Shown piece after piece: positions 6,921-26,109 of a stretch of 32,000 bases of DNA. Position 1 is the stretch's first letter, and the number at the start of each line of letters is the position of its first letter. The notes beneath the pieces were generated by a model. The model was not told the DNA's origin, ran no database searches, and was given only the letters and a program-made list of their open reading frames with translations. Source of the DNA: Citreicoccus inhibens (GTDB lineage Bacteria; Myxococcota; Myxococcia; Myxococcales; Myxococcaceae). The position numbers and the translations under genes were made by a program. The stretch lies in assembly GCF_019039035.1 (NCBI RefSeq), contig NZ_JAHNZT010000030.1:78099-110098 (forward strand). The letters are read 5' to 3'.

Positions 6921-8915
6921 TCACGCGAGGGTGGACTCGTAGCTGAGGGCCTGGATGCGGCGCTGGATCTCCTCCTGGACCCGCTGCCGCTCCTTCTCCA
7001 CCCGCGTCAGCTCCTGGCCAATGGCCTCCAGCCGGTCCTCCTGCTCGGTGAGCTTCGCCACGAAGCGGTCCGTCAGCTCGCGCTGCGAAGCCCCGCTGCG
7101 CAGCGACTCCAGGTTGGAGCGGATGCGCTCCTGGTCGCGGAACAGGTGGTTGCGCTCCTCGGTGAGCTGCTCCTGGGTGCGCGTCAGCTCCGCCCGCTGG
7201 CCACGCAGCGCCACCACGTCGCGCAGCGCCTGCGCCACGCCCTGGTCGATGAAGCGCGAGTCGAGGAAGAAGGCCACCTCGTCCAGGCCCACCTCGCCCA
7301 CGTGGTACTGGCGATGCCCCCGCGTGCGCTCGGCGACGGTGAGCTCCTGGGTGGTGCCCGGGGACAGCTCGCGGCGGAAACGCCAGAAGTCATCCGTGGT
7401 CTCCGCGGGCTCGGGCATGTCCTTGAGCTCCCAGCCCGTGCGCGGGTGCTCCACGAACAACACCTGCGCGCGCGTCGACTTGTTGCGCACCAGGTAGCGC
7501 GCGTGTCGCAGGTGGTAGAACTCCACCATCAACGTGCCCCGGTTCACCACGGCGCGGAACACCGGCCCATCCTCCGAGCGGTCCTCCACCGACACCACGC
7601 ACCCCAGCTCCACCGCGTACGGCACGAAGCGGCGGTCCCCGGGCTTCATCGTGTCGAGCATGGCCTCGCCCACGTACGTCTCCGCCTCCGTCACCGTCAC
7701 CGGGCCACCCTCCAACGTCAGGCCCGTGGTGTTGGTGAACTCGATGCACGCCATGGGGTTCTTCTCGCGCGTGGCGCGGTTGTAGAGCAGCACGCGCCGC
7801 CCCTCGAAGGGCCGCTGGAGGATGGGCACCAGCGCGCTCTGGTTGCGGTGCACCGTCACCGGCTGGTCCACGCGGTACTCGAACAGGTCGCCCACCTCCT
7901 GGGTGAGCGTGGTCACCCGCGCGGTGCCCAGCCGCGCCTCGCGCATCGACCGGCTCGCCTCCGGAGCCTCCGCCCGCGCCCGGGAGCGCTTGGGCATGGG
8001 CGCCGGCGCCGCGGCGGCGGGCCCGCCCATGGACCCGGGCAGGCCCCCATCCATGTCCAGCATGGACGCGGACTCCATCAGCGCCTCCTGCGGAATCACC
8101 GGCGCCGCGGCGGCCTCGGTCCGCACCTCCACCACTGGCCGCTGGAGGTAGCGCGGGTTGTAGAGGTCATGCACGAAGGACACGGGCAGGCCCGCGATGA
8201 GCGACAGCCGGACGTCCACCCAGTCCTCGTCCCCCGTGTTGTCCACCAGCGCCCACCCCTGGAGCAGCGGCGCGTGGCCCTCCTCCAGCAGGATGCGGTA
8301 GCTCGTCTTCCACACCGGGGACTCGAGCACGTAGCTCACGAACAGCTCGCGCTCACCCTCCCCCGACGTGAGGATGGACATCCGCTTGGTGTCCTTCTTG
8401 TACGAGGACAGCACCGTGGCCAGATAGAACTCGAGGTCCTTGCGCACCGCCTCGTCCAGGAACTCCAGCTCGGACAACTCCAGCACGTCGAACGTGCGCA
8501 GGCTCCCGCCCACCAGCAGCGTGAGGAAGGGGCGCGCGAGGCTCGTCTCTCCCGCGGCCACCGCCAGCGTGTCCAGCCCGACGATGGCGCCCTCTATCTT
8601 TCCGCCGCCCACGCGCGCCCGCACGCGCGCGCCCTTCACCTGCCCCAGGAGCGCCGTGAGGCTGCCGTCCTCGGGGATGCGGATGGTGGCCTCCGCCAGG
8701 AGCTGCTCCAGCGGCTTCGTCGAGTCATAGCTCACGGCCGACACCGCGCCGCCGGACAGGTCCAAGACGGTCAGCGACTTGAGGACGTCGTTCATGTCGC
8801 GGGCCTTGAAGTCGAGCAGCAAGGGCTCGCTGCCGCTCACCCGCCCCCGACGTTCGAAGTAGCCCACACCGTGCTTGTAGAGGACGACGCGGCGGATGGT
8901 CAGTGCAGGGGCCAT
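6921..8915 (-). CDS. DUF4139-family protein (MuiA-like) with C-terminal coiled coil
   Basis: Central signature SPVWKTSYRILL...ALVDNTGDEDWVDVRLSLIAG is typical of DUF4139. About 90 aa at the C-terminus form heptad-rich coiled coil. GGAGG lies 10 nt upstream of the ATG at 8915. Confidence 0.85.
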   Translation of the reverse strand: MAPALTIRRVVLYKHGVGYFERRGRVSGSEPLLLDFKARDMNDVLKSLTVLDLSGGAVSAVSYDSTKPLEQLLAEATIRIPEDGSLTALLGQVKGARVRARVGGGKIEGAIVGLDTLAVAAGETSLARPFLTLLVGGSLRTFDVLELSELEFLDEAVRKDLEFYLATVLSSYKKDTKRMSILTSGEGERELFVSYVLESPVWKTSYRILLEEGHAPLLQGWALVDNTGDEDWVDVRLSLIAGLPVSFVHDLYNPRYLQRPVVEVRTEAAAAPVIPQEALMESASMLDMDGGLPGSMGGPAAAAPAPMPKRSRARAEAPEASRSMREARLGTARVTTLTQEVGDLFEYRVDQPVTVHRNQSALVPILQRPFEGRRVLLYNRATREKNPMACIEFTNTTGLTLEGGPVTVTEAETYVGEAMLDTMKPGDRRFVPYAVELGCVVSVEDRSEDGPVFRAVVNRGTLMVEFYHLRHARYLVRNKSTRAQVLFVEHPRTGWELKDMPEPAETTDDFWRFRRELSPGTTQELTVAERTRGHRQYHVGEVGLDEVAFFLDSRFIDQGVAQALRDVVALRGQRAELTRTQEQLTEERNHLFRDQERIRSNLESLRSGASQRELTDRFVAKLTEQEDRLEAIGQELTRVEKERQRVQEEIQRRIQALSYESTLA

Positions 8916-9904: not shown

Positions 9905-10339
9905 TTACTTCGAGAGCACTTCGAACAAGCGACGCATGTCCCGGCGCAGCCGGGTGACCTCTTCCAAAGACATCCCCAGGCGGCAGGACATCGCCTCGGG
10001 CACGGACGCGGCCTTGCGCTTCAGGGCGCGCCCCGACGTCGTCAGCGACACGCGCACCGAGCGCGCGTCCTCGGTGGACCGCTCGCGCCGCACCCACCCC
10101 TGGGTCTCCAGCCGCTTGAGCAGCGGCGTCAGCGTCCCCGAATCCAGGAACAGCCGCTCCCCCAGCACCTTCACCGACACCCCGTCCTCCTCCCACAGCA
10201 CCAGCATCACCAGGTACTGCGGATAGGTCAGCCCCAGCTTCTCCAGGAGCGGCGCGTAGGCCTGCACCATCGCGCGCGCCGCCGCATAGAGCGGAAAGCA
10301 GAGCTGGCGGTCCAGCCGGAGCGAGTCATCCGTCGACAT
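9905..10339 (-). CDS. ohrR: MarR-family organic hydroperoxide sensor/repressor OhrR (2-Cys type)
   Basis: Sensing Cys in RQLCFPLYAA, and wHTH LTYPQYLVMLVLWEEDGVSVKVLGERLFLDSGTLTPLLKRLETQGWV. A second Cys lies near the C-terminus (AMSCRLG). ATG at 10339 (the ORF-track start at 10345 is TTG). The gene sits 26 nt upstream of ohr on the same strand. Confidence 0.9.
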   Translation of the reverse strand: MSTDDSLRLDRQLCFPLYAAARAMVQAYAPLLEKLGLTYPQYLVMLVLWEEDGVSVKVLGERLFLDSGTLTPLLKRLETQGWVRRERSTEDARSVRVSLTTSGRALKRKAASVPEAMSCRLGMSLEEVTRLRRDMRRLFEVLSK

Positions 10340-10478: not shown

Positions 10479-11261
10479 ATGCTGAGGACGGTCACCGCCA
10501 CCCGCTATGTGACGCCGCTGCGCGAAGGGGGCTCGCTGCCCGCCATCGTGGAAGCGGACGACGCGGGCTTGTACGTCGTGAAGTTCCGGGGCGCCGGCCA
10601 GGGGGCCAAGGCCCTCATCGCCGAGCTGCTGTCGGGCGAGCTGGCGCGCGCCATGGGGCTGCGCATCCCGGAGCTCGTCTTCCTGGAGCTGGACCCGGCC
10701 CTGGGGCGCAACGAGCCGGACGGCGAGATTCGCGAGCTGCTCAAGGCCAGCGCGGGGCTCAACCTGGCCCTGGACTATCTGCCGGGCTCGCTGACGTTCG
10801 ACCCGGTGGCGGACCGCGCGCCCGAGGCCGCGCTCGCGTCCACCATCGTCGCCTTCGATGCGTACGTCACCAACGTGGACCGCACGCCGAAGAACCCCAA
10901 CCTCCTGACGTGGCACCGGGACCTGTGGCTCATCGACCACGGCGCCTCGCTGTATTTCCACCACGCGTGGGAGGGCTGGGAGGAGCGCAGCCAGAGCCGC
11001 TTCGCGCCCATCCGCGACCACGTGCTGCTGCCCTGGGCGCGCGCGCTGCCAGAAGTGGGCGCCGTGCTGCGCGAGCGGCTGACGCGGAACGTGGTGGAGG
11101 CGGCCGTGGCCGCCATTCCGGAGACCTGGCTGGGCACCGAGCCCTGCTTCGACAGCCGGGATGCCCACCGCGCGGCCTATGTCACGTGGTTCATGAAGCG
11201 GCTGGACGCGGCACCCGCGTTTCTCGAGGAGGCGGCGCGTGCCCACACCCAGCTCGTTTGA
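10479..11261 (+). CDS. HipA-like (HipA_2 type) serine/threonine kinase-fold protein
   Basis: 260 aa. Candidate ATP-binding Lys in YVVKFRGAGQG. Catalytic loop TNVDRTPKNPNLL (D134, K138, N139; the GAC codon for D134 is at 10878-10880). Mg-binding LWLIDHGAS (D153). GAGGA lies about 5 nt upstream of the ATG at 10479. Confidence 0.85.
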   Translation: MLRTVTATRYVTPLREGGSLPAIVEADDAGLYVVKFRGAGQGAKALIAELLSGELARAMGLRIPELVFLELDPALGRNEPDGEIRELLKASAGLNLALDYLPGSLTFDPVADRAPEAALASTIVAFDAYVTNVDRTPKNPNLLTWHRDLWLIDHGASLYFHHAWEGWEERSQSRFAPIRDHVLLPWARALPEVGAVLRERLTRNVVEAAVAAIPETWLGTEPCFDSRDAHRAAYVTWFMKRLDAAPAFLEEAARAHTQLV

Positions 11262-11637
11262 CTACGCCATCATCCGCGTGGTGCCTCGCGTGGAGCGCGA
11301 GGAGTTCATCAACGCGGGCGTCGTCCTCTTCTGCGTCAACCACCGCTACCTGGGGGCGCGCACGGCGCTGGACGAGGACCGGCTGCGGGCCCTGGCCCCG
11401 GACGCGGACGTGGAGGCCATCCGAGGCCACCTGGAGAGCTTCCTGCGGGTGTCCACCGGGGGGCGGAACGCGGGCCCCATTGGGCAGCTCCCGCAGAAGG
11501 AGCGCTGGCACTGGCTGGTGGCCCCGCGCAGCACCATCATCCAGACCGGGCCCGTGCACGCCGGCTTGTGTGAGACGCCCGACAAGGCCCTGGAGCACCT
11601 GCTGGACCGCGTGGTCCGCGTGAAGCGCCCCGCCTGA
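11239..11637 (+). CDS. DUF3037 domain protein
   Basis: 132 aa. N-terminal FDYAIIRVVPRVEREEFINAGVVLFC matches the DUF3037 signature. The GTG at 11239 overlaps the kinase 3' end by 23 nt, which suggests translational coupling. Confidence 0.85.
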   Translation: MPTPSSFDYAIIRVVPRVEREEFINAGVVLFCVNHRYLGARTALDEDRLRALAPDADVEAIRGHLESFLRVSTGGRNAGPIGQLPQKERWHWLVAPRSTIIQTGPVHAGLCETPDKALEHLLDRVVRVKRPA

Positions 11638-13577: not shown

Positions 13578-16208
13578 ATGCGCTGCTGCCATCGCCACGC
13601 TCCCGCCATCGCCTCTTCCGAGCCGCACCCCTTCAGCCTCCCCGGCGCCACCGAGCACTACGCCGCCGAGCGCCCCGTCCGCGCCGAGCACATCCGCCTG
13701 GAGCTGGACCTGGACTTCGAGGCCCGCGCGCTGACGGGCCGATGCACCACGCGCGTGAGCGCCGTGCGCGCCGTCTCCACCGTGACGTTCGACGCGGTGG
13801 ACATGGACATCACCGAGGCGCGCGTGGACGGCCGGCCCGCGCGCTTCTCCAACTCCGGCGCGCACGCGCGCGTGGAGCTGCCCGAGCCGATGGAGCCCGG
13901 TCAGGCCCGCGACATCACGCTCGCGTACCGCTGCCGGCCGCGCCGCGGGCTGTACTTCTGGGGCCCCGACGCGGGCTATCCCGAGCGCCCGCTCCAGGCC
14001 TGGACCCAGGGGCAGGACATCGACGCGCGCTGCTGGTTCCCCTGCCTGGACACGCCCGCGCAGAAGGCCACCACGGAGGTCATCGCCACGTTCCCCGCGC
14101 GGATGACGTCGCTGTCCAACGGCGTGCTCGTGCGCGACGTCACCGAGGGCGAGCGCCGCACCCAGCACTACCGCATGGAGCAGCCGCACTCGCCCTACCT
14201 CGTCACGCTGGTGGTGGGCGAGTTCGAGGAGGCGACGGACTCCGCCGGCACCGTGCCGCTGCGCTACCTGTACCCGCCCGGCCGCCGCGAGGACGCGCTG
14301 CGCTGCGTGGCGCGCACGCCCCAGATGGTGGCGCTCTATCAGCAGCTCACCGGCGAGCCCTTCCCGTGGAGCGGCTATGCGCAGGTGTTCGTCACCGAGT
14401 TCATCCTCGGCGGCATGGAGCACACCACCGCCACCACGCTGTTGGACAGCGTGCTGCACGACGCGCGCGCCCACGCGGACTACAGCGCCGAGCCGCTCAT
14501 CGCCCACGAACTGGCGCACCAGTGGTTCGGCAACCTGCTCACCTGCCGCGACTGGCCCCACGGCTGGCTCAACGAGGGCTTCGCCACCTACGTGGAGGTG
14601 CTCTGGAAAGAGCACGCCGACGGCGCCGACGAGGCGGACCAGCACCGGCTCACCGACTTGAGCGCGTACCTCACCGAGGTGCGCGAGCGCTACGCCCGGC
14701 CCATTGTCGCGCGCAAGTTCCACGCGCCCATGGACCTGTTCGACCGGCACCTCTACGAGAAGGGCGCGCTCGTGCTCCACGAGCTGCGCCGCCGCGTGGG
14801 TGACGACCTCTTCTTCCGCGCCCTGCGCCACTACGTGTCCCGCCACCGCCACGGCGTGGTGGAGACCGTGGACCTGTCGCGCGCGTTCGAGGAGGCCACC
14901 GGCCACAACCTGGATCGCGTGTTCGACCAGTACGTCTTCTCACCCGGCCACCCCGAGCTGAAGGTGGAGGTCCGATACGACGCGGAAGAGGCGCGCCTGC
15001 GGCTCAAGGTCCGCCAGACGCAGCGGACCGACGCGGGCACGCCCGTGTTCCGCTTGCCGCTGGACGTGCGCGTCACCGTGGACGGCCGCGACACGCTCCA
15101 CCGCCTGGACATCACCGACGCCGAGCACTTCTTCCACCTGCCCTGCCCCACCCCGCCCACGCAGGTGCGCGTGGATCCGCGCCGCGAGGTGCTCGGCGCC
15201 GTGGACGTGGACAAGGCCGTGGGCCTCTGGCTGGAGGAGCTGCGCGCCGCGCCCGAGGCCCGCGCCCGCACCGAGGCCGCGCACGCGCTGGGCAAGGACG
15301 GCGGCTCCCGCGCGGTGGAGGCGCTGGGCCGCGCGCTGGAGGACGACGCGCTGTTCTGGGGCACCCGCGCCGCGTGCGCGAAGGCGCTGGGCCGCATCCG
15401 CTCCCCCGAGGCGCGCGCGCGGCTGCTCGCGGGGCTCCCCGTCGCGCACCCCAAGGTGCGCCGGGCGGTGGTGGCCGCGCTGGGGGAGTTCCGGCGCGAC
15501 GTGGAGGTGGCGGGCCGCCTGCGCGCGCTGCTGGAGGCGGGCGACGCCAGCTACTTCGTGGAGGCCGAGGCCGCGCGCGGCCTGGGGCGCGTGCGCGCCG
15601 TGGACGCGGTGCCGCTGTTGGAGGCGGTGGCCGCGCGGCCGTCGTTCCAGGATGTCATCGGCTCGGGCGCGCTCGACGGGCTCGCGGAGACGCAGGACCC
15701 GTCCGCCTTCCCCGCCGCCGTCGCGCGCACGGCCTACGGCCAGCCCGCGCACATGCGACGCACGGCCGTGTTCGCGGTGGCGAAGCTGGCCCAGGTGGCC
15801 CGGCGTGAGCGCGAGGCCGTGGACCTGCTCTCGGACCTGTTGAGGGATCCGCAGTTCCGCATGCAGTGGACGGCCTGCGAAGCGGCGAAGACGCTGGGGG
15901 ACCGGCGCATGATTGCCGCGCTGGAGGGCACCTCGCTCAATGACCCGCGCACGCGCCGCGCCGCGCGAGAGGCCGTGCGGGCCTTGCGCGAGGGCGAGCC
16001 TCAGGCGCGCGAGGTGGCCTCGCTGCGCGAGGAGGTGGACAAGCTGAAGGAAGAGTCCCGTGCCCTGCGCGAGAAGCTGGAGGCGCTCGCCCTGCGCAGG
16101 CCGGAGCCCCCGCCGCCCACCTCACCGCCGCGGGGACGTGCGGCGGCGAAGCACGCGGCGAGGAAGTCCACGAGCCGGCGCGTCACCGGGCGGGGCCGAA
16201 GGAAGTAG
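13578..16208 (+). CDS. M1-family aminopeptidase (aminopeptidase N-like) fused to C-terminal HEAT repeats, a coiled coil and a basic tail
   Basis: GGMEHT is a variant of the GxMEN exopeptidase motif. Zinc site HELAH (14505-14519) followed by WLNEGFATY. C-terminal repeats AAHALGKDGGSRAVEALGRALEDD..., AACAKALGRIRSPEA... and RRAVVAALGEF are HEAT/PBS-lyase-like. The tail is EVDKLKEESRALREKLEAL followed by Lys/Arg-rich sequence. Confidence 0.9.
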   Translation: MRCCHRHAPAIASSEPHPFSLPGATEHYAAERPVRAEHIRLELDLDFEARALTGRCTTRVSAVRAVSTVTFDAVDMDITEARVDGRPARFSNSGAHARVELPEPMEPGQARDITLAYRCRPRRGLYFWGPDAGYPERPLQAWTQGQDIDARCWFPCLDTPAQKATTEVIATFPARMTSLSNGVLVRDVTEGERRTQHYRMEQPHSPYLVTLVVGEFEEATDSAGTVPLRYLYPPGRREDALRCVARTPQMVALYQQLTGEPFPWSGYAQVFVTEFILGGMEHTTATTLLDSVLHDARAHADYSAEPLIAHELAHQWFGNLLTCRDWPHGWLNEGFATYVEVLWKEHADGADEADQHRLTDLSAYLTEVRERYARPIVARKFHAPMDLFDRHLYEKGALVLHELRRRVGDDLFFRALRHYVSRHRHGVVETVDLSRAFEEATGHNLDRVFDQYVFSPGHPELKVEVRYDAEEARLRLKVRQTQRTDAGTPVFRLPLDVRVTVDGRDTLHRLDITDAEHFFHLPCPTPPTQVRVDPRREVLGAVDVDKAVGLWLEELRAAPEARARTEAAHALGKDGGSRAVEALGRALEDDALFWGTRAACAKALGRIRSPEARARLLAGLPVAHPKVRRAVVAALGEFRRDVEVAGRLRALLEAGDASYFVEAEAARGLGRVRAVDAVPLLEAVAARPSFQDVIGSGALDGLAETQDPSAFPAAVARTAYGQPAHMRRTAVFAVAKLAQVARREREAVDLLSDLLRDPQFRMQWTACEAAKTLGDRRMIAALEGTSLNDPRTRRAAREAVRALREGEPQAREVASLREEVDKLKEESRALREKLEALALRRPEPPPPTSPPRGRAAAKHAARKSTSRRVTGRGRRK

Positions 16209-20910: not shown

Positions 20911-21561
20911 TCACCACCCGTTCTTCTGGCCGTACTCCTGCGCCTCGGACGTGAACTTGTGGGTGGACGCGGACATGGTCCACACGAAGTTGGCGCGGAG
21001 CTGATCCGGATCATTGATGCCCGGCGTCGGCTTGGGAGGAATTGGCACCTCGGCCTGGACGAAGACCGCCGTGCCGCCGCCGCCGTTGCCCTGGGCGTTG
21101 GGCAGGTTGGACAGCTCGGTGCGGATGGTGGAGAGGAACGAGGTCAGCTCCGTCGCGCGCACGCCCGTGAGGTAGAAGAACGTCTGGAGACTCTGGACGT
21201 CGAAGCCGTACGCGACGAACTGGGACTTGTCGGTGGGGTGGCGGTACACGGACACGTACGCGCTGCGCACCGTCACGGGGATGAACGGCGTGCCCACGGG
21301 CCAGTTGGCGACCTTGGTCGCCGCGGCTGGCAGCGTGGGCAGGGTGGGCACGGAGGTGACGACGCACGTCGCCCCCGCGTCCACGCCGGCGTCCACGCCC
21401 GCGTCCGCCAACGGCAGGTAGATGATGGGCGGCAGCGTGGTGACGGTGGACTGCTGCGTCACCTGCGCGGGCGCCTCCCCAGGCGGGACTTCTCCGGCCT
21501 CCAGGCCACAGGCCACCCACGCCAACGCCGAGCACACTCCGAGCACGAAGGCTCGCTTCAT
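20911..21561 (-). CDS. Lipoprotein, function unknown (last gene of the ECF/anti-sigma-CHAT operon)
   Basis: MKRAFVLGVCSALAWVACG is a signal peptide with lipobox. Contains an (A/G)VDAG tandem repeat. The start is 35 nt downstream of the CHAT gene stop, on the same strand, and is preceded by GGGGGAAG. Confidence 0.75.
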   Translation of the reverse strand: MKRAFVLGVCSALAWVACGLEAGEVPPGEAPAQVTQQSTVTTLPPIIYLPLADAGVDAGVDAGATCVVTSVPTLPTLPAAATKVANWPVGTPFIPVTVRSAYVSVYRHPTDKSQFVAYGFDVQSLQTFFYLTGVRATELTSFLSTIRTELSNLPNAQGNGGGGTAVFVQAEVPIPPKPTPGINDPDQLRANFVWTMSASTHKFTSEAQEYGQKNGW

Positions 21562-21596
21562 GGCACTTCCCCCTCTGTCTGGATGATGAGTTGTGA

Positions 21597-24500
21597 CTAC
21601 TCAAAGACAACGACGGTCTGCACCCAACTTCCCGGGTTCCTCCCGAGAAACTCCATCCGCTCGCGCTTCACGGCGACCGAGGGAGACGCTCCCTCGCGCA
21701 CGCGGCGGCGCACGGCCTCGAAGAACGCACCGGCCTCGGCGTCTGGAATGTCCGACGGCGACGCGATGACGGCGCGCGCGCCCGCCTCCAGGAACGCGAC
21801 CGGCAAGCTCCACGGCTCATGCAGATACGGCGCGGTCTCGGCGGCCCGGCACGACGCCAGGATGACCACCGGGGCGCGCGACAAGTGCTGGCGGCGCACC
21901 TCGCCCGCGGTCAGCGCGTAGCGGCCATCCGCCTGCGCGGACAGCACGATGAGCGACGCATCCGAGATGCCCAGGTTCACCAGCCCGTGCGCGTGGATGT
22001 CGATTTCATCCGCGCTCGGCATCTCGGCCAGGACGCGCTCCGGCGTCGCGGCGGCGCCCGTCAGGTCCACGCGGGGCGCGGTGGGCTCGGTGCCCGGCAG
22101 CCACGCGGACAGCCGCGGCAGCCCCAGCGCGGCGGGCGCGTTCACGTCACTGACCACCAGCCGTCTCGGCGCGCCCGAGGCCGCCACCGCGGGCTTCGAG
22201 TCCCCACGCTGATAGCTCCACGCGAAGTCGGGAGGCAGCAACCCCGCCCGCCCATGCAAGGGATAGCGGGCAAAGACAGACACGTGCTCGCAGGGGCGCA
22301 GCGCCTCCAGCACCGGCGCGGACACCAGCGAGGCGACGTCGAACGCGGGCGCGCCGCGGGTGGTGAGCGTGCCCACGGCCTCGCCCTTCGCGCCGCGCGC
22401 GGCCACCAGCATGCGCTCCTCGGCGATCTCCACGCCCAGCAGACAGCGCGTGGGCGCCGCGACGCCAGACTCACGGGCGAACCAGTCGAGCGCCCCCGCG
22501 AAGTCCCCCGCGCGACCGGCCTCCAGGATGAGCAGGGAGTAGCTCGCGGCCCGCGCCTTCTGCGCCCCCGTGTCCTCGCGCGGCAGCTTCTCCGCCGCCG
22601 CGATGAGGTCCTCCAACTGCCGCCGCCCCGCGACGCGGTCGTGCTCCAGCTCGGCGCGCGCGATGGCGTGGTCGACCATCAACAGCAGCCCGGGCCGCTT
22701 GCCGAGCCCCGGCTGCATACGAGCGGACGCCGCGAGCGCGCGCACCGCCTCCAGGTCTCCCGGCCGGGGCGCGACGCGCGACAGGTCCGCGAGGACGAGC
22801 GGGCTCAGGGCGGAGCGCGGCGACCCACACTCCGGCACCGCGCCCAGCTCGGTCCGCGCGGCGTCGAAGCGCAACTCGGAGGCGTCCAGCATCGCGAGCG
22901 TCTCGTGCAGGAAGACCTGGGCGGCGCAGACATCCGGCTGGCGCAGCGCGGACTCCCGCAGGTAGGCGCGCGTGAGCGCGAACGCGTCCCGGAAGCGGGC
23001 AATCTGCCCCAGGTGCTGGAGGAACTGCGTCTCCTGCTCGGGGTCGTTCGAGGCGCGCGCCCGCTCCAGTCCGCGCAGCGCGTGCTCGCGGGCCTCCACC
23101 AGCCGGTGCTGCGACGTGTAGAGGTACGTGAGCACCGACTCCAGCTCGCCGCAGCGCGCGTCCAGCTTGCGCAGCTCACAGGCGGGCAGGGCCTTCAGCA
23201 GCAGCGCCTCCGCGCTCGCCATCTCGCCAGCCGTCAGCCTGGCCTGCGCGCGCTGCAGCTCCGCGTTGACCTGGAACCATGGGTCGCCCACCGCGTCCGC
23301 CGCCCGAGCGTAGTCGTCCAGCGCCGCGGGCAGCCGCCCCAGCAGCGCGAGCGCGCCCAGCAGGATGTCCGAGTCCCCCGAGGCCCGCAGCGCCCGCACG
23401 AACCCATCCGCGCCCGCCATGTCGAAGGCGCCCGCCAGCACCTGGGCGAACGACGTCGCCAGCGGACCTCGCCGCGCGAAGTCCCGCTTCTGCGTCCGCT
23501 CGATGTAGCGGGCCAGCACGTCGCCGCCGTAGTGCGCGTCCAGCTCGCGCGCCTCGGGGAGCAGCGCGCGCACGCGCTCGGCGGTGGGCGCGGTCCAAGC
23601 CGCCAGATACAGGTACTTGCGCGCGAGCGCCGGGGCCTCGCGCACCAGCGTCGCCGGCAGGGGCGTGCCATCCGCCACCAGCGTCTTGTTCGCGGACCAG
23701 GCCTGGTTCCAGTGGTCCTGCCGCGCCTTCGTCTGGCGCCGCACCGCCTCGGCGCGCTCGCGCGCCTCCTGGCTCCAACCCGGCTCGTTCAGCGCGGCCA
23801 CCTGCTCGAAGCCCTCGGCCGCGAGCAGGTCCAGGCCCAGCTCGCGCAACACGAGGCTGCGGTTCCACATCGCCGCCGCGTGCCGGGGCTCCTTCGCGAG
23901 CACACGCTCCAGCAGGACGAGGGCGTCCTCCAGGTCCCCGCGTTGCAGCGCCACCACGGCCCGGTCGCTGTCCACATCCGGAGAAGCAGGCGCGCGCTTC
24001 AAGTCCTCGCGCGCCTGATCCACTTCGCCGCGAAGCAGGTGTCCCGTGCCCAGCCCGTGCAGGTCCCCCGCCGCCTCCAGCTTCGCCAGCGCCTGGAGCG
24101 GCACCAGCTCGCGCGGACGCTCGTCGCCCGAGCGCTTCACGCCGTAGGGCCGATACCCGCTCGCCCCGGACCAGCTCAGCCGAGCCTCCAACGAGCGCGT
24201 GGGCGCCAGGGCCAGCGCCTCCGGCCCCACCACCTGCTCCGAGCCATCCGTCGAGGGCGAGCGGAACAGCGCCACCGTCAGCGCGGCCGTCAACGAACCG
24301 CTCAGCGCCACCGCCGCCACCCAGCGGCGACGCCCGCTCCACGCCGGACGGAAGGCGCGCGAGGGCTTCGCCTCGCGGGGAGCGTGAGGGGCAGGCGCCG
24401 CGGGGACGTCCGCGTCGCGCGGCGGCGACACCACGCGCAGCGGACGGACCTCCTCCTCGGCGTGGATTGCCTCGCCCGCGGACTTGAGCTCGAGGATGAC

Positions 24501-24644
24501 GTCCAGCGCATCCATGCAGCGCTCGCAAGTGACCAGGTGCTCACGGAAGGACGCGGCCTCCTCCGGCGACAGCTCGTCATCCGCGAACAGGTGAACCTGG
24601 TCGTGGATGTCCAGCATGTCGAGGTCACGCTCGGAGTCGCTCAT
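21597..24644 (-). CDS. Transmembrane zinc anti-sigma factor (zf-HC2) fused to periplasmic TPR repeats and a C-terminal CHAT (caspase-like) protease domain
   Basis: 1015 aa. ZAS motif H36-x3-C40-x2-C43 (FREHLVTCERC, nt 24516-24539). One TM helix, WVAAVALSGSLTAALTVALF (residues 108-127, nt 24264-24323), preceded by RRR. A long Ala/Leu/Arg TPR-like region follows. C-terminal CHAT dyad contexts are EIDIHAHGLV (H886, nt 21987-21989) and PVVILASCRAAE (C932, nt 21849-21851). The ATG is 2 nt after the sigma gene stop. Confidence 0.9.
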   Translation of the reverse strand: MSDSERDLDMLDIHDQVHLFADDELSPEEAASFREHLVTCERCMDALDVILELKSAGEAIHAEEEVRPLRVVSPPRDADVPAAPAPHAPREAKPSRAFRPAWSGRRRWVAAVALSGSLTAALTVALFRSPSTDGSEQVVGPEALALAPTRSLEARLSWSGASGYRPYGVKRSGDERPRELVPLQALAKLEAAGDLHGLGTGHLLRGEVDQAREDLKRAPASPDVDSDRAVVALQRGDLEDALVLLERVLAKEPRHAAAMWNRSLVLRELGLDLLAAEGFEQVAALNEPGWSQEARERAEAVRRQTKARQDHWNQAWSANKTLVADGTPLPATLVREAPALARKYLYLAAWTAPTAERVRALLPEARELDAHYGGDVLARYIERTQKRDFARRGPLATSFAQVLAGAFDMAGADGFVRALRASGDSDILLGALALLGRLPAALDDYARAADAVGDPWFQVNAELQRAQARLTAGEMASAEALLLKALPACELRKLDARCGELESVLTYLYTSQHRLVEAREHALRGLERARASNDPEQETQFLQHLGQIARFRDAFALTRAYLRESALRQPDVCAAQVFLHETLAMLDASELRFDAARTELGAVPECGSPRSALSPLVLADLSRVAPRPGDLEAVRALAASARMQPGLGKRPGLLLMVDHAIARAELEHDRVAGRRQLEDLIAAAEKLPREDTGAQKARAASYSLLILEAGRAGDFAGALDWFARESGVAAPTRCLLGVEIAEERMLVAARGAKGEAVGTLTTRGAPAFDVASLVSAPVLEALRPCEHVSVFARYPLHGRAGLLPPDFAWSYQRGDSKPAVAASGAPRRLVVSDVNAPAALGLPRLSAWLPGTEPTAPRVDLTGAAATPERVLAEMPSADEIDIHAHGLVNLGISDASLIVLSAQADGRYALTAGEVRRQHLSRAPVVILASCRAAETAPYLHEPWSLPVAFLEAGARAVIASPSDIPDAEAGAFFEAVRRRVREGASPSVAVKRERMEFLGRNPGSWVQTVVVFE

Positions 24645-24646
24645 GG

Positions 24647-25294
24647 CTACTCGGTCTCCGGAGGCTGGGGGGTCAACAGCGCGTGGAGCTTCTGCCGCGC
24701 CCGGGCGAGGCGCGTACCCACCGTGTTCTTGTTGAGGCCCAGGTGGTCGGCAATCTCGATGTACGAGCGCCCTTCGATTTCCTTCATCCGGAACACCGTA
24801 CGGAACTCCTCAGGAATCTGCTCCAGCGCCTCGCGAACTTCCGCGGTGCCGAACTTCGCCCACAAGGGCTCGTCCTCGGGCAGCGGCGCGGCGACCGTTT
24901 CCTGCACTTCTTCCGCGGACACCCCGGCCCGGCGCTCGCGCAGCTTCAGGCGGTGTCGATCGAAGAAGAGGTTGCGCTGGACGCGCAGCAGCCAGGCGCG
25001 CGCGTCCCCCTGCGTCTTCAGCTGCTCGCGGTGGCGCCAGGCGCGCTCGTAGGTGTCCTGGATGAGGTCGCCCACATCCGAGGCATTGCCGGCGAGCTGC
25101 ATTCCCCGCGTGCGCAAGAGCGTGTCGTGCTGGCGAATGAAGGCGTCGAACCAGCGGCGGTCCTGCACTTCCAATGAAGGGGGCTCGCTCTCCACGCGGG
25201 ACACAGGCTGGCTGGTCGGTTCGGGAGCAGTCAAGCGCCGCGAGCCCCGGACCGCCGGGAGCCGCCCCATCCACTCCAGCGCGAAAGTATCCAT
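24647..25294 (-). CDS. ECF (group IV) sigma-70 family RNA polymerase sigma factor
   Basis: Region 2 is DVGDLIQDTYERAWRH and RAWLLRVQRNLFFDRHR. Region 4.2 is FRMKEIEGRSYIEIADHLGLNKNTVGTRLARARQKL. ATG at 25294 with GAGGA about 10 nt upstream. There is an N-terminal extension of about 40 aa. Confidence 0.9.
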   Translation of the reverse strand: MDTFALEWMGRLPAVRGSRRLTAPEPTSQPVSRVESEPPSLEVQDRRWFDAFIRQHDTLLRTRGMQLAGNASDVGDLIQDTYERAWRHREQLKTQGDARAWLLRVQRNLFFDRHRLKLRERRAGVSAEEVQETVAAPLPEDEPLWAKFGTAEVREALEQIPEEFRTVFRMKEIEGRSYIEIADHLGLNKNTVGTRLARARQKLHALLTPQPPETE

Positions 25295-25474
25295 GGCGTC
25301 CCCGTCCTCAGGCCCTTGCGGAGAGTCCACCGCACTGCTCCGCTCCGCGCAGCCGTACCCACAACCCCGACGCGTGCATGTCTTCAGTCCCTCCCTGAAC
25401 AAGCGGTCCGGAAGGGAAACGAAGCGTGTGGCCAATCTTCCCAGCGGGGATATTCGCGCCATTTCCTCCCGCGC

Positions 25475-25993
25475 TCAGGAAGGGCGACGCATTCGCGCCG
25501 CGCGCCGCGCGCAGGAGAAGCCCACCCAGCCGAGGACGGGCGCCATCAACAGCGGGGCCCGGGCGTCCACCTGACGCGCGGAGACGGTGTAGGCCACCGC
25601 GCTGCCCAGCCGCAGCGCGCGCTCCACCCTCGCGGCAGGCGCTCGACGCCCCCCGCCCCAGGGCCCGCTGAGATGGAGGCCCAGTTGGGCTCCCCACCAC
25701 ATCAAGGCCCGTGAGCGCGCCGGCCCCGCGGCCGAGCCCCACACGCGCCACGCCGACACGGCGAGCAGCGCGGACATCAGCGTCCACGCGGGCCCCGTCA
25801 CGCCGTCTCGACGCGGCGAGGTCGACCGTCCCACCCCACGCCATGAGCGCGCGGGGGACGTCGTCCAGCGTGCGCCCCAGAGCGAAGCCCCCGCGGTCAG
25901 CGCCCCCATCACCCCGAGCGCCGCGGCCGACTCCCGGTTGAGCGTGGCGTTGCGCTGAAGCCCCGCGGGCGTACCCCATGCGGTCAGGTCCAT
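25475..25993 (-). CDS. TspO/MBR-like (tryptophan-rich sensory protein-like) protein, highly divergent
   Basis: 172 aa. Strong SD GGGAGGA 6 nt upstream of the ATG at 25993. GC3 is about 88% in this frame. Collinear TspO-like blocks: GPAWTLMSALLAVSAWRVW, ALMWWGAQLGL and QVD...LLMAPVLGWVGF. The segments expected to be TM helices carry many Arg/Gly. Confidence 0.5.
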   Translation of the reverse strand: MDLTAWGTPAGLQRNATLNRESAAALGVMGALTAGASLWGARWTTSPARSWRGVGRSTSPRRDGVTGPAWTLMSALLAVSAWRVWGSAAGPARSRALMWWGAQLGLHLSGPWGGGRRAPAARVERALRLGSAVAYTVSARQVDARAPLLMAPVLGWVGFSCARRAARMRRPS

Positions 25994-26109
25994 GTGTCGT
26001 CCTCCCAGCGCCCCACGGGGAAGCTGGGCGCGCGAAACTCCCCGCGCCAGCCGCGCCCGCCCGCCAGTGTTACAAGAGACCTTTCCCGTGCCACGCGGCG
26101 AGGCTGCGC

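What the first reader, a model, noticed from the sequence alone, without database searches (positions are those of the whole stretch)
20911..25294. ECF sigma, ZAS anti-sigma fused to a TM helix and periplasmic TPR-CHAT protease, and a lipoprotein: a possible built-in proteolytic sigma switch
Seen in sequence:
- Three co-directional genes with a 2-nt and a 35-nt gap.
- The middle protein combines a textbook zinc anti-sigma motif (HLVTCERC), a single TM helix with positive charges on the N-terminal side, about 600 aa of TPR-like repeats, and a C-terminal CHAT domain. The caspase-type dyad contexts are intact (IHAHG ... ILASC).

Established knowledge:
- ECF anti-sigma factors are normally inactivated by separate site-1/site-2 proteases.
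- CHAT domains are caspase-like proteases recurrent in conflict and signalling systems.
- In type III-E CRISPR loci, a TPR-CHAT protease (Csx29) is functionally coupled to an ECF sigma (RpoE) through cleavage of Csx30.

Inference:
- Here the TPR-CHAT module is covalently part of the anti-sigma itself, with no cas genes in the window. This suggests a CRISPR-independent protease-to-sigma signalling device.
- The device could work by auto-cleavage or by cleaving, or being held in check by, the downstream lipoprotein.
- I am not aware of a characterised anti-sigma with this architecture.
Basis: partly seen in the sequence, partly recalled or inferred. Interest (0 to 1): 0.8.

Follow-up and report, generated by a model that had tools for sequence, protein, structure and literature searches.

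The report
DdvA-like protease-bearing anti-sigma switch operon
This three-gene operon encodes a sigma factor, a membrane anti-sigma factor with a caspase-like protease domain on its periplasmic side, and a small lipoprotein; it is a new paralogue of the structurally solved DdvS/DdvA system of Myxococcus xanthus, not a new architecture, though its conserved lipoprotein partner and predicted second target operon have not been described.

Summary
On the minus strand lie an ECF sigma (24647-25294), a 1015-aa anti-sigma (21597-24644: zf-HC2, one TM helix, helical scaffold/TPR, CHAT with His886/Cys932) and a 216-aa lipoprotein (20911-21561), with 2-nt and 35-nt gaps.

The architecture is not uncharacterised. 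It is that of DdvA/DdvS of Myxococcus xanthus (NAR 2018; Sci Adv 2024, cryo-EM 8ROT). The window protein matches DdvA at E=1e-119 (35% identity). Its AlphaFold model superposes on 8ROT (TM 0.87), and the dyad aligns with DdvA H862/C907.

This copy is a distinct paralogue clade in conserved housekeeping synteny (window probably Corallococcus sp. M34). It has no CBASS or CRISPR genes nearby and a different promoter.

Three points appear new:
- The lipoprotein belongs to a small unannotated family almost always found just downstream of TPR-CHAT genes. A signal-less homologue follows DdvA, and the lipoprotein is lost together with CHAT in truncated orthologues.
- A conserved GGAAGAT-N13-CGT promoter precedes the sigma gene.
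- The same promoter precedes ZAS-less TPR-CHAT+lipoprotein operons in the same genomes, which suggests a two-operon regulon.

Verdict: new member of a known kind; moderate interest.

The parts
25419..25441 (-). Predicted autoregulated ECF-type promoter GGAAGATTGGCCACACGCTTCGT (-35 GGAAGAT, -10 CGT(T))
   Evidence: Expected 0.18 matches per window by chance. The sequence is identical in strain JPH2. The same motif lies upstream of the sigma gene in all 17 orthologue loci. In the 79 related loci (2.9 Mb counting both strands), GGAAGAT-N13-CGT occurs 35 times, nearly all at these upstream positions.
24647..25294 (-). ECF sigma-70 family factor (215 aa from ATG 25294; start uncertain, with an in-frame TTG at 25403-25405 and GTG at 25330 as alternatives)
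   Evidence: Pfam Sigma70_r2 and Sigma70_r4_2; NCBIfam sigma70-ECF 1.8e-24. Identity to DdvS is 29%. The N-terminus MDTFALEW aligns from residue 1 in orthologues.
21597..24644 (-). DdvA-like transmembrane anti-sigma factor, 1015 aa
   Evidence: phmmer against PDB 8ROT_B (DdvA): E=1.1e-119. Identity to DdvA is 34.7% over 908 aa. AlphaFold model pLDDT 87.9. Best Foldseek hit is 8ROT_A: E=1.9e-49, TM 0.77/0.87.
24447..24611 (-). Cytoplasmic zinc-binding anti-sigma domain (residues 12-66; putative ligands H14, H36, C40, C43)
   Evidence: Pfam zf-HC2 1.9e-8. H36, C40 and C43 are at least 90% conserved. The model shows a three-helix bundle at 13-21, 27-39 and 41-66. It matches the DdvA N-terminal domain 8RLZ.
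24264..24323 (-). Single transmembrane helix (residues 108-127), N-in
   Evidence: Kyte-Doolittle 2.0, the only such segment. RRR lies on the N-terminal side. It aligns with the DdvA TM helix.
24099..24263 (-). Periplasmic linker (residues 128-182). It contains the conserved motif PTRSLEARLS and a flexible loop at about 165-182, the counterpart of the DdvA loop proposed as the cleavage site
   Evidence: R150, E153 and R155 are invariant or nearly invariant. pLDDT is below 50 at 127-139 and 170-174. The mapping to DdvA 125-143 comes from the alignment. The DdvA loop is described in PMC11506125.
22467..24098 (-). Helical scaffold (including the long helix 290-325, counterpart of the DdvA midrib helix alpha12) and TPR superhelix (residues 183-726)
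   Evidence: Model secondary structure. Pfam TPR_16 and TPR_19. Domain limits are transferred from DdvA.
21600..22466 (-). CHAT caspase-like domain (residues 727-1015); His886 codon at 21987-21989, Cys932 codon at 21849-21851
   Evidence: Pfam CHAT 1.6e-15. H886 and C932 are invariant in 58 sequences and align with DdvA H862/C907. No indel longer than 3 aa relative to DdvA within CHAT.
20911..21561 (-). Lipoprotein of an unannotated family (216 aa; lipobox Cys18 codon at 21508-21510; disordered tether at about 19-70; alpha/beta core at 70-216)
   Evidence: No Pfam, NCBIfam or PADLOC hit. The family has 60 cluster representatives at E<=1e-3 among 1.84 billion. Lipobox and core motifs are conserved. 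AlphaFold pLDDT 79, core above 90. No PDB fold match. The gene always lies next to a TPR-CHAT gene.

Best explanation
Identity. The locus is a DdvS/DdvA-type signalling module: an autoregulated ECF sigma, its translationally coupled transmembrane anti-sigma, and a co-transcribed lipoprotein. The anti-sigma consists of a cytoplasmic zinc-binding anti-sigma domain, one TM helix, and a periplasmic scaffold-TPR-CHAT domain. It is a separate paralogue clade from DdvA, about 35% identical. Family membership is near certain (about 0.95).

How it most likely works, with steps marked as shown or inferred:
1. In the resting state the ZAS three-helix bundle holds the sigma at the membrane. This is shown for DdvA and inferred here.
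2. The bulky periplasmic TPR-CHAT dimer blocks the site-2 protease RseP. This is shown for DdvA truncations and inferred here.
3. A periplasmic protein signal activates the conserved His886/Cys932 dyad, and the CHAT of one protomer cuts the flexible linker loop of the other (here about residues 165-182). This step probably involves the dedicated lipoprotein, as ligand, pseudosubstrate or substrate. It is a published hypothesis for DdvA and is unproven.
4. RseP and cytoplasmic proteases remove the remainder and free the sigma.
5. The sigma transcribes its own operon from GGAAGAT-N13-CGT. It probably also transcribes a second operon elsewhere in the genome that encodes a ZAS-less membrane-anchored TPR-CHAT paralogue and a paralogous lipoprotein. 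This is inferred from shared promoters.

The regulon is not a CBASS/CRISPR island. The physiological signal is unknown.
For: Identity:
- phmmer to DdvA 8ROT, E=1e-119; 34.7% identity over 908 aa.
- The AlphaFold model (pLDDT 87.9) superposes on 8ROT_A: E=2e-49, TM 0.87, rmsd 4.1 A over 921 columns. Separase and craspase follow only at about 1e-8.
- Pfam zf-HC2, TPR, CHAT and ECF sigma domains; TM helix.

Active protease:
- H886 and C932 are invariant in 58 homologues at 35-96% identity and align with DdvA H862/C907.
- CHAT is collinear with DdvA, with no indel longer than 3 aa.

Periplasmic location:
- Positive-inside topology.
- Conserved extracytoplasmic cysteines C734 and C785 (invariant), with C489, C498, C573 and C606 nearly invariant in the 20-sequence alignment.
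- The DdvA cryo-EM topology.

Linker: low-confidence loops at 127-139 and 170-174 correspond to the DdvA flexible linker.

Autoregulation: a conserved promoter in the window, in JPH2 and in 17 of 17 orthologue loci.

Second operon: the same motif lies directly upstream of 13 of 13 ZAS-less group-B TPR-CHAT genes, which have no adjacent sigma. Groups A and B co-occur in at least 10 genomes. Group B's sister ZAS clade lacks the motif.

Lipoprotein link:
- Present downstream in 12 of 13 full-length orthologues and about 40 of 79 loci.
- All 4 informative, independently sampled family members lie next to a TPR-CHAT gene.
- Lost together with CHAT in syntenic truncated orthologues.
- A core homologue follows DdvA (HMM E=1e-11).

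RIP steps and the trans-cleavage model: PMC11506125.
Against: - CHAT cleavage of the anti-sigma has not been observed in any family member. DdvA H862A and C907A still repress DdvS, and phage Mx4 did not induce cleavage.
[quoted passage not shown] By collinearity, this one lacks it too.
- Natural CHAT-less orthologues (about 560-610 aa) exist in Hyalangium and other genera. CHAT is therefore dispensable for an anti-sigma of this clade.
- One full-length orthologue (Archangium violaceum, L004) has no lipoprotein.
- The DdvA-adjacent and group-E homologues of the lipoprotein core lack signal peptides. That is awkward for a universal periplasmic partnership.
- hhalign support for homology between lipoprotein groups A and C/E is weak (53%).
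- The group-B regulon link rests on a shared promoter motif only, and could not be checked in the window's own genome.
- Binding of this sigma to this ZAS domain is inferred, not tested.
Confidence: 0.6

Rival explanations
1. The CHAT protease does not cut the anti-sigma itself. Its true substrate or pseudosubstrate inhibitor is the co-encoded lipoprotein, in a securin-like or Csx30-like relationship. Cleaving or displacing the lipoprotein changes the conformation of the TPR-CHAT dimer and exposes the anti-sigma to a conventional site-1/site-2 cascade.
For: - The lipoprotein and TPR-CHAT genes are tightly adjacent across deep divergence.
- CHAT and the lipoprotein are lost together in syntenic truncated orthologues.
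- The pairing persists in ZAS-less TPR-CHAT operons that have no sigma. The protease-lipoprotein pair is therefore the older unit.
- The lipoprotein has a disordered tether of about 50 residues (pLDDT about 50) that could reach an active site.
- Separase-securin and Csx29-Csx30 are the nearest structural relatives after DdvA.
Against: - No interaction or cleavage data exist.
- No motif shared between the lipoprotein and known CHAT cleavage sites was found.
- L004 lacks the lipoprotein.
- The DdvA-clade homologues lack signal peptides.
- The family has no recognisable fold relatives.
Confidence: 0.25
2. The CHAT domain is only a sensor and steric plug that no longer cleaves anything. The sigma is released by ordinary regulated intramembrane proteolysis, using a separate site-1 protease and then RseP.
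For: - The DdvA CHAT active site is incomplete and was captured in a resting state, and its catalytic mutants behave like wild type.
- CHAT-less orthologues exist and presumably still work as anti-sigmas.
- Truncated DdvA is degraded by RseP.
Against: - The His/Cys dyad is invariant in 58 sequences spanning 35-96% identity, including ZAS-less paralogues. This argues for selection on catalysis.
- No candidate site-1 protease is encoded in the operon.
- The nearby M13, M1 and M48 peptidase genes are simply part of the same conserved chromosomal neighbourhood, with no specific link to the operon.
Confidence: 0.15
3. Like DdvS/DdvA, this pair is a regulator of antiphage defence. Its target defence genes lie outside the 32-kb window.
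For: - The only characterised family member controls a CBASS/CRISPR island.
- CHAT domains recur in conflict systems.
- A PADLOC candidate system (PDC-M66) lies 10 kb away.
Against: - No defence genes are adjacent, and the triad has no PADLOC hits.
- The locus sits in conserved housekeeping synteny (CHASE2 cyclase, DUF924, TspO, PAS kinase) across genera. This is not the pattern of a variable island.
- The DdvS promoter GTAA-N16-CGT is absent from the window. The clade's own promoter motif was found only at its own operon and at the group-B operon.
- The DdvA paper states that only a subset of such pairs lie near defence systems.
Confidence: 0.12
4. The sigma is released by a cytoplasmic redox or zinc-ejection switch in the ZAS domain, as in RsrA. 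The periplasmic domain has an unrelated role.
For: - H-x3-C-x2-C motif with an upstream His.
- A weak NCBIfam match to RsrA (24 bits).
- The DdvA paper shows that zinc-site mutations weaken DdvS binding and discusses reactive oxygen species as a second input.
Against: - The RsrA match is far below the cutoff (62.5 bits).
- Most ZAS domains are not redox sensors (established knowledge).
- A conserved 890-aa periplasmic domain with an invariant dyad would be left unexplained.
Confidence: 0.08

Closest known systems
DdvS/DdvA of Myxococcus xanthus (MXAN_7289/7288; PDB 8ROT, 8RW5, 8RLZ; PMC6061681, PMC11506125)
   Same: - Same gene order and translational coupling of sigma and anti-sigma.
- Same full-length architecture: ZAS, one TM helix, flexible linker, scaffold with a long midrib helix, TPR superhelix, and a CHAT domain collinear with DdvA's, which lacks the three-helix motif.
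- The dyad aligns residue for residue.
- E=1e-119 by sequence and TM 0.87 by structure.
- A homologue of the lipoprotein core follows DdvA.
   Different: - Only about 35% (anti-sigma) and 29% (sigma) identical, and in a separate clade on the tree.
- First zinc ligand is His14 where most of the 58 aligned homologues have Cys; DdvA's zinc centre is CHCC.
- Promoter is GGAAGAT-N13-CGT rather than GTAA-N16-CGT.
- No CBASS, CRISPR or C25 peptidase genes nearby; conserved housekeeping synteny instead.
- The downstream protein is a full lipoprotein of 216 aa, not a signal-less protein of 110 aa.
Type III-E craspase: Cas7-11 with Csx29 (TPR-CHAT), Csx30, RpoE, Csx31
   Same: A TPR-CHAT caspase-like protease is functionally linked to the release of an ECF sigma. 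There is structural similarity (Foldseek about 1e-7 to 7Y84, 8EEY and 8EEX).
   Different: - Csx29 is cytoplasmic, monomeric and RNA-activated through Cas7-11. It cleaves a separate protein, Csx30.
- Here the protease is periplasmic, fused to the anti-sigma, probably dimeric, and has no cas genes nearby.
- TM-score is only 0.2-0.3.
Separase-securin (eukaryotes)
   Same: A helical scaffold/TPR plus a CHAT-type caspase domain, with a possible pseudosubstrate partner. Foldseek E is about 1e-8.
   Different: Separase is eukaryotic, cytoplasmic or nuclear, monomeric, and retains the three-helix motif. There is no sequence similarity beyond the fold.
Self-cleaving anti-sigma factors (RsgI of Firmicutes; FoxR/FpvR-type in Pseudomonas)
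   Same: The concept of an anti-sigma that supplies its own site-1 cleavage ahead of the site-2 protease.
   Different: Those cleavages are constitutive and non-enzymatic (an N-O acyl shift or SEA-like autoproteolysis), not carried out by a caspase-like domain (as discussed in PMC11506125).
RseA-DegS-RseP regulated intramembrane proteolysis (E. coli sigma-E)
   Same: A single-pass anti-sigma whose periplasmic domain blocks the site-2 protease RseP until it is removed.
   Different: Site-1 cleavage is done by a separate PDZ protease, DegS. The periplasmic domain is small and binds RseB. RseA has no ZAS domain and no CHAT domain.

Membership tests
DdvA-like TPR-CHAT transmembrane anti-sigma / DdvS-like ECF sigma pair | N-terminal cytoplasmic zinc-binding anti-sigma domain (three-helix bundle; H/C ... 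H-x3-C-x2-C) | tested here: met
   Pfam zf-HC2 1.9e-8. H14, H36, C40 and C43 are present, and H36, C40 and C43 are at least 90% conserved. The model shows helices at 13-21, 27-39 and 41-66. phmmer to 8RLZ gives 1.6e-4.
DdvA-like TPR-CHAT transmembrane anti-sigma / DdvS-like ECF sigma pair | Single TM helix with N-in/C-out topology | tested here: met
   One segment at 108-127 with Kyte-Doolittle 2.0 and a positive N-flank. It aligns with the DdvA TM helix. This is a prediction only; no experimental topology exists.
DdvA-like TPR-CHAT transmembrane anti-sigma / DdvS-like ECF sigma pair | Periplasmic scaffold + TPR + CHAT domain collinear with DdvA residues 93-991 | tested here: met
   phmmer: residues 105-1015 against DdvA 68-991, E=1e-119. 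Foldseek to 8ROT_A: E=1.9e-49, TM 0.77/0.87.
DdvA-like TPR-CHAT transmembrane anti-sigma / DdvS-like ECF sigma pair | Canonical His-Cys dyad at the positions of DdvA H862/C907 | tested here: met
   H886 and C932 align exactly and are invariant in 58 homologues.
DdvA-like TPR-CHAT transmembrane anti-sigma / DdvS-like ECF sigma pair | CHAT domain lacking the three-alpha-helix motif of separase and craspase | tested here: inconclusive
   No indel longer than 3 aa relative to DdvA within CHAT, so the motif is probably absent here too. No direct superposition on craspase was inspected.
DdvA-like TPR-CHAT transmembrane anti-sigma / DdvS-like ECF sigma pair | Cognate ECF sigma gene immediately upstream, co-transcribed or translationally coupled | tested here: met
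   ECF sigma domains. The junction TAGCCATG leaves a 2-nt gap. A sigma lies upstream in 40 of 79 family loci.
DdvA-like TPR-CHAT transmembrane anti-sigma / DdvS-like ECF sigma pair | Physical sequestration of the sigma by the ZAS domain; dimeric arrow-shaped assembly | not testable with these tools
   Only monomer prediction was available. The long helix at 290-325, corresponding to the DdvA midrib helix alpha12, is present.
DdvS regulon (orthology to the M. xanthus defence-island regulator) | Adjacent CBASS and type III-B CRISPR-Cas genes driven by GTAA-N16-CGT promoters | tested here: not met
   The window has no SMODS, SAVED, Cmr or Cas genes. The pattern has 0 matches in the window. The DdvA locus L083 has all of these features. 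This locus is therefore a paralogue, not the DdvA orthologue.
Type III-E craspase (Csx29-Csx30-RpoE) | Cytoplasmic TPR-CHAT associated with Cas7-11 and a Csx30 substrate | tested here: not met
   No cas genes are present, and the TM helix places CHAT outside the cytoplasm. Foldseek TM-score to craspase is only 0.2-0.3.
RsrA-type redox-sensing ZAS anti-sigma | Match to TIGR03988 above its cutoff; soluble protein | tested here: not met
   24.1 bits against a cutoff of 62.5. The protein is membrane-anchored.
TPR-CHAT-associated lipoprotein family (unnamed, defined here) | Lipobox signal peptide, conserved core (SAYTV..F.AYGFDV..F.V.G), proline-rich segment, C-terminal helix; encoded directly downstream of a TPR-CHAT gene | tested here: met
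   57-sequence alignment. 60 representatives in 1.84 billion proteins. Genomic adjacency. Homology of groups C and E to group A is only weakly supported.

The most novel reading that the evidence does not exclude
The unit under selection is a periplasmic TPR-CHAT protease paired with a dedicated lipoprotein. The ECF sigma of this clade runs a two-operon circuit: its own operon (sigma, ZAS-TPR-CHAT, lipoprotein) and a second, ZAS-less TPR-CHAT+lipoprotein operon with the same GGAAGAT-N13-CGT promoter.

The DdvA model has CHAT cutting the partner protomer in trans. On that model, the sigma-induced ZAS-less paralogue could heterodimerise with the anti-sigma and act as a feedback protease. This would include the natural CHAT-less anti-sigmas of Hyalangium. 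The lipoproteins would serve as the signal-presenting ligand or as a securin-like inhibitor.

That would be a split, paralogue-based proteolytic feedback loop in ECF signalling, which has not been described.
Probability: 0.25. Interest if true: 0.65.

Novelty: new member of a known kind. Interest (0 to 1): 0.35.

Why it matters
The architecture has already been published and solved as DdvA, so the headline claim adds little. Three things give this locus value.

1. It shows the family operating outside defence islands, in a vertically inherited housekeeping context. DdvA-type switches are therefore a general myxobacterial periplasmic signalling device and not only a phage-defence regulator.

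2. It points to a missing component of the DdvA model. A dedicated, unannotated lipoprotein family tracks the CHAT domain and is gained and lost with it. This gives experimenters a concrete candidate for the unknown periplasmic signal, substrate or inhibitor, which the DdvA authors say is the main gap.

3. The shared promoter predicts a small, testable regulon that includes a ZAS-less protease paralogue. Natural CHAT-less orthologues provide a ready-made genetic test of whether cleavage works in trans.

Tried and rejected
- The DdvS promoter pattern GTAA-N16-CGT has no match in the window.
- PADLOC gives nothing for the triad.
- Pfam and NCBIfam give nothing for the lipoprotein.
- A Foldseek search of the lipoprotein model against the PDB found nothing significant: best E=0.14, TM 0.22.
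- The word-based homologue search for the lipoprotein found only 3 relatives. The exhaustive HMMER search was needed.
- Exact-sequence look-ups for the Corallococcus sp. M34 proteins P0080 and P0051 found no contig. I therefore could not check whether the window's own genome carries a group-B operon.
- No supplementary table S7 of the DdvA paper is held.
- The second promoter-like hit at 13597-13619 (-) reads GGAAGAG rather than GGAAGAT. It lies inside the 5' end of the M1 peptidase gene on the opposite strand with no gene downstream, so I treated it as chance.
- I considered a separase-like ExxR site in the conserved linker motif SLEAR and dropped it, because the spacing is E-x-R.
- I considered the neighbouring M13, M1 and M48 peptidases as site-1 protease candidates. 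They have no specific link beyond lying in the same conserved neighbourhood.
- Iterative HMM clustering joined all downstream lipoproteins into one family. Profile-profile tests support only groups A-B (96%) and A-F (98%) firmly, with A-C and A-E at 53%. I do not claim one family for all clades.

Full report
**1. What is there**

The window has about 72% G+C. Between 20911 and 25294 the minus strand carries three ORFs:
- 21597-24644: 1015 aa.
- 20911-21561: 216 aa.

The first two are separated by TAGCCATG, a 2-nt gap, and the last two by 35 nt. No terminator-like hairpin lies between them.

Pfam and NCBIfam identify the first protein as an ECF sigma (Sigma70_r2 7e-11, Sigma70_r4_2 1.2e-14, TIGR02937 1.8e-24). 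The second has zf-HC2 at 12-43 (1.9e-8), TPR matches at 204-283 and CHAT at 859-1000 (1.6e-15). The third matches nothing.

The middle protein has one hydrophobic segment, 108-127 (Kyte-Doolittle 2.0), preceded by SGRRRW.

**2. The architecture is already characterised**

A full-text search for "anti-sigma" plus "CHAT domain" returned two papers on DdvS/DdvA of Myxococcus xanthus.

DdvA is a single-pass anti-sigma. It has a cytoplasmic ZAS domain of about 70 residues and a periplasmic domain of about 900 residues that folds as scaffold, TPR and CHAT. Cryo-EM shows arrow-shaped dimers. The CHAT has the dyad H862/C907 in a resting geometry, and it lacks a three-helix motif present in separase and craspase.

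The authors propose signal-induced autoproteolysis in trans of the flexible linker as a built-in site-1 cut, followed by RseP. They show RseP-dependent degradation of truncated DdvA. However, the H862A and C907A variants still repress DdvS, and phage Mx4 induces no cleavage.

They also state that M. xanthus has two more DdvA-like anti-sigmas. Many Myxococcota have several such pairs, only some of them near defence systems.

**3. The window protein belongs to this family**

- phmmer against all PDB chains gives DdvA (8ROT_B) at E=1.1e-119 over residues 105-1015, and the DdvA N-terminal domain 8RLZ at 1.6e-4.
- I rebuilt DdvA residues 68-948 from that alignment. Identity to the window protein is 34.7% over 908 positions.
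- His886 pairs with H862 and Cys932 with C907. Within CHAT no indel exceeds 3 residues.
- An AlphaFold2 model built on 58 homologues has mean pLDDT 87.9 and pTM 0.81. It shows a three-helix N-terminal bundle, a disordered cytoplasmic tail, the TM helix, low-confidence loops at 127-139 and 170-174, a 36-residue helix at 290-325 (the counterpart of the DdvA midrib alpha12), TPR helices up to 726 and a beta-rich CHAT.
- Foldseek places 8ROT_A first: E=1.9e-49, TM 0.77/0.87, rmsd 4.1 A over 921 columns. Separase and craspase TPR-CHAT proteins follow at about 1e-8 with TM 0.2-0.36.
- His886 and Cys932 are invariant in 58 homologues. So are two periplasmic cysteines, C734 and C785.

**4. It is a paralogue, not the DdvA orthologue**

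- The lipoprotein is 100% identical to a hypothetical protein of Corallococcus sp. M34.
- The anti-sigma is 96% identical to one from Myxococcaceae bacterium JPH2, whose locus is collinear with the window: TspO, sigma, anti-sigma, 217-aa protein, PAS kinase, M13 and M1 peptidases.
- A pattern scan of GTDB species genomes confirmed 184 loci, all in Myxococcota, often six or more per genome.
- An orthologue clade at 55-62% identity occurs in Archangium, Vitiosangium, Hyalangium, Pyxidicoccus, several Myxococcus species and Corallococcus. It sits in the same neighbourhood (CHASE2 cyclase, DUF924, TspO, PAS kinase).
- On an NJ tree of the periplasmic domains, DdvA lies in a different super-clade.
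- The sigma is 29% identical to DdvS.
- The window contains no CBASS, cas or other PADLOC-recognised genes near the operon.
- By contrast, the real DdvA locus fetched for comparison shows SMODS, CHAT-SAVED, DdvS, DdvA, a 110-aa protein, a C25 peptidase, a type II CBASS and Cmr genes.

**5. Promoter and predicted regulon**

DdvS promoters are GTAA-N16-CGT. None occurs in the window.

Upstream of the sigma gene I found GGAAGATTGGCCACACGCTTCGT at 25441-25419. The window-wide chance expectation for GGAAGA-N14-CGT is 0.18. The sequence is identical in JPH2. The same GGAAGA(T/A)-N13-CGT(T) element sits upstream of the sigma gene in all 17 orthologue loci.

Unexpectedly, the same element lies directly upstream of all 13 "group B" genes. 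These encode TPR-CHAT paralogues that lack the ZAS domain. They have a short N-terminus and a membrane anchor, and no sigma gene next to them. Over the 79 loci (2.9 Mb counting both strands), GGAAGAT-N13-CGT occurs 35 times, almost all at these positions.

Group A and group B loci co-occur in at least 10 genomes. The ZAS-bearing sister clade of group B lacks the motif.

My inference is that this clade's sigma autoregulates and also drives the group-B operon. I could not test this in the window's own genome.

**6. The lipoprotein**

- It has a conserved lipobox (V-A-C18-G).
- tblastn finds it right after the anti-sigma in 12 of 13 full-length orthologue loci. The exception is Archangium violaceum L004.
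- An iterative HMM over the genes downstream of all 79 loci collects 40 of them. hhalign supports homology firmly for group A versus B (96%) and A versus F (98%), and only weakly for A versus C or E (53%).
- An exhaustive HMMER search of 1.84 billion cluster representatives finds just 60 members at E<=1e-3. All are 110-230 aa and almost all have a lipobox. They share the core SAYTV..P.D..F.AYGFDV...F.V.G, a proline-rich stretch and a C-terminal helix.
- Of five members sampled from that independent list, four had informative contigs. All four lie immediately downstream of a TPR-CHAT gene, three of them with zf-HC2 and a sigma or partial upstream gene.
- The 110-aa "protein of unknown function" after DdvA matches the family profile (31.9 bits, E=1e-11) but has no signal peptide. 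Group E proteins, next to the closest relatives of DdvA, are tandem duplications of the core, also without a signal peptide.
- In Hyalangium and some other genomes the orthologous anti-sigma is truncated to about 560-610 aa. It sits in the same synteny and has the same promoter, but has lost the CHAT domain and the lipoprotein together.
- The AlphaFold model (pLDDT 79, core above 90) shows a disordered tether of about 50 residues and a small alpha/beta core. It has no significant match in the PDB.

**7. Mechanism**

Family membership is secure. The working model is the one published for DdvA:
- the ZAS domain sequesters the sigma;
- the TPR-CHAT dimer blocks RseP;
- a periplasmic signal activates the dyad;
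- the dyad cuts the linker loop of the partner protomer (here about residues 165-182);
- RseP and cytoplasmic proteases then free the sigma.

Only the ZAS-sigma binding and the RseP step have experimental support, and only for DdvA. Everything here is inferred by homology.

The invariant dyad argues that the protease is active. The incomplete active site, the silent catalytic mutants in DdvA and the natural CHAT-less orthologues argue for caution.

The lipoprotein data favour a model in which the lipoprotein is the ligand, inhibitor or substrate of the CHAT domain. The signal-less homologues in the DdvA clade do not fit this simply.

**8. Verdict**

This is a new member of a known kind, a paralogue of DdvS/DdvA, with moderate interest.

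The parts that look new are the lipoprotein family, its co-loss with CHAT, and the promoter shared with ZAS-less paralogue operons. All are computational inferences that can be tested directly.

Noticed in passing
window 10479-11261 (+) and 11239-11637 (+): A HipA_2-like kinase followed by an overlapping DUF3037 protein. Both match the PADLOC candidate defence pair PDC-M66A/B (E=3.8e-26 and 2.2e-9). A MarR regulator lies divergently upstream at 9905-10339 (-).
   Followed up: partly
window 25475-25996 (-): A TspO/MBR family gene (Pfam 8e-13) lies directly upstream of the sigma gene on the same strand. This adjacency is kept in JPH2 and in about eight orthologue loci. It could be a functional link or simple synteny.
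   Followed up: partly
window 25295-25418 (-): In the window and in JPH2, about 105 nt separate the predicted -10 element from the ATG at 25294. Orthologues have only about 10-20 nt. An in-frame TTG at 25403-25405 lies 17 nt after the -10 and could be an alternative start, but GC3 of that stretch is only about 75% by hand count. The JPH2 annotation calls a shorter, 195-aa sigma.
   Followed up: partly
L052, L056, L062, L064; proteins P0041, P0044, P0045, P0056, P0065, P0073: Natural CHAT-less orthologues of the anti-sigma (about 560-610 aa: ZAS, TM, scaffold and part of the TPR) occur in Hyalangium, an Archangium MAG and others. They have the same promoter and, in Hyalangium, the same synteny. 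The lipoprotein gene is missing too.
   Followed up: partly
L013, L017, L018, L020, L022, L023, L025, L035, L040, L048, L057, L058, L067: These are ZAS-less, membrane-anchored TPR-CHAT paralogues, each with a downstream lipoprotein. They have no adjacent sigma but carry the same GGAAGAT-N13-CGT motif just upstream. The start codons lie only 5-12 nt after the -10, which suggests leaderless mRNAs.
   Followed up: yes
L042, L049, L059-L061, L065, L066, L068-L072, L076, L079: A further large ZAS-less TPR-CHAT clade, including the hit in M. xanthus AM003, has neither a sigma, nor a lipoprotein, nor the promoter motif. Periplasmic TPR-CHAT proteins in Myxococcaceae are therefore a much larger family than the anti-sigma subset.
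   Followed up: no
L083 10967-11299 (+) (DdvA locus of Myxococcus sp. MxC21-1): The 110-aa "protein of unknown function" downstream of DdvA is a signal-less homologue of the lipoprotein core (HMM E=1e-11). The reading frame is closed 15 nt upstream of its ATG, so no signal peptide is possible.
   Followed up: yes
L051, L055, L077 (downstream genes): The downstream proteins next to the closest relatives of DdvA in the set are tandem duplications of the lipoprotein-family core without signal peptides. Their assignment to the family is only weakly supported (hhalign 53%).
   Followed up: partly
window 13597-13619 (-): A second GGAAGA-N14-CGT match (GGAAGAGGCGATGGCGGGAGCGT) lies inside the 5' end of the M1 aminopeptidase gene on the opposite strand. 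It lacks the conserved T of GGAAGAT and has no gene downstream, so it is probably chance.
   Followed up: partly
protein P0076 (1100 aa): One metagenomic homologue carries Sigma70_r2/r4 Pfam domains on the same polypeptide as the TPR-CHAT region. It is either a genuine sigma/anti-sigma fusion or a gene-calling merge.
   Followed up: no
window 6921-8915 (-): A 664-aa ORF with strong coding signal (GC3 0.96) has no Pfam or PADLOC match.
   Followed up: no
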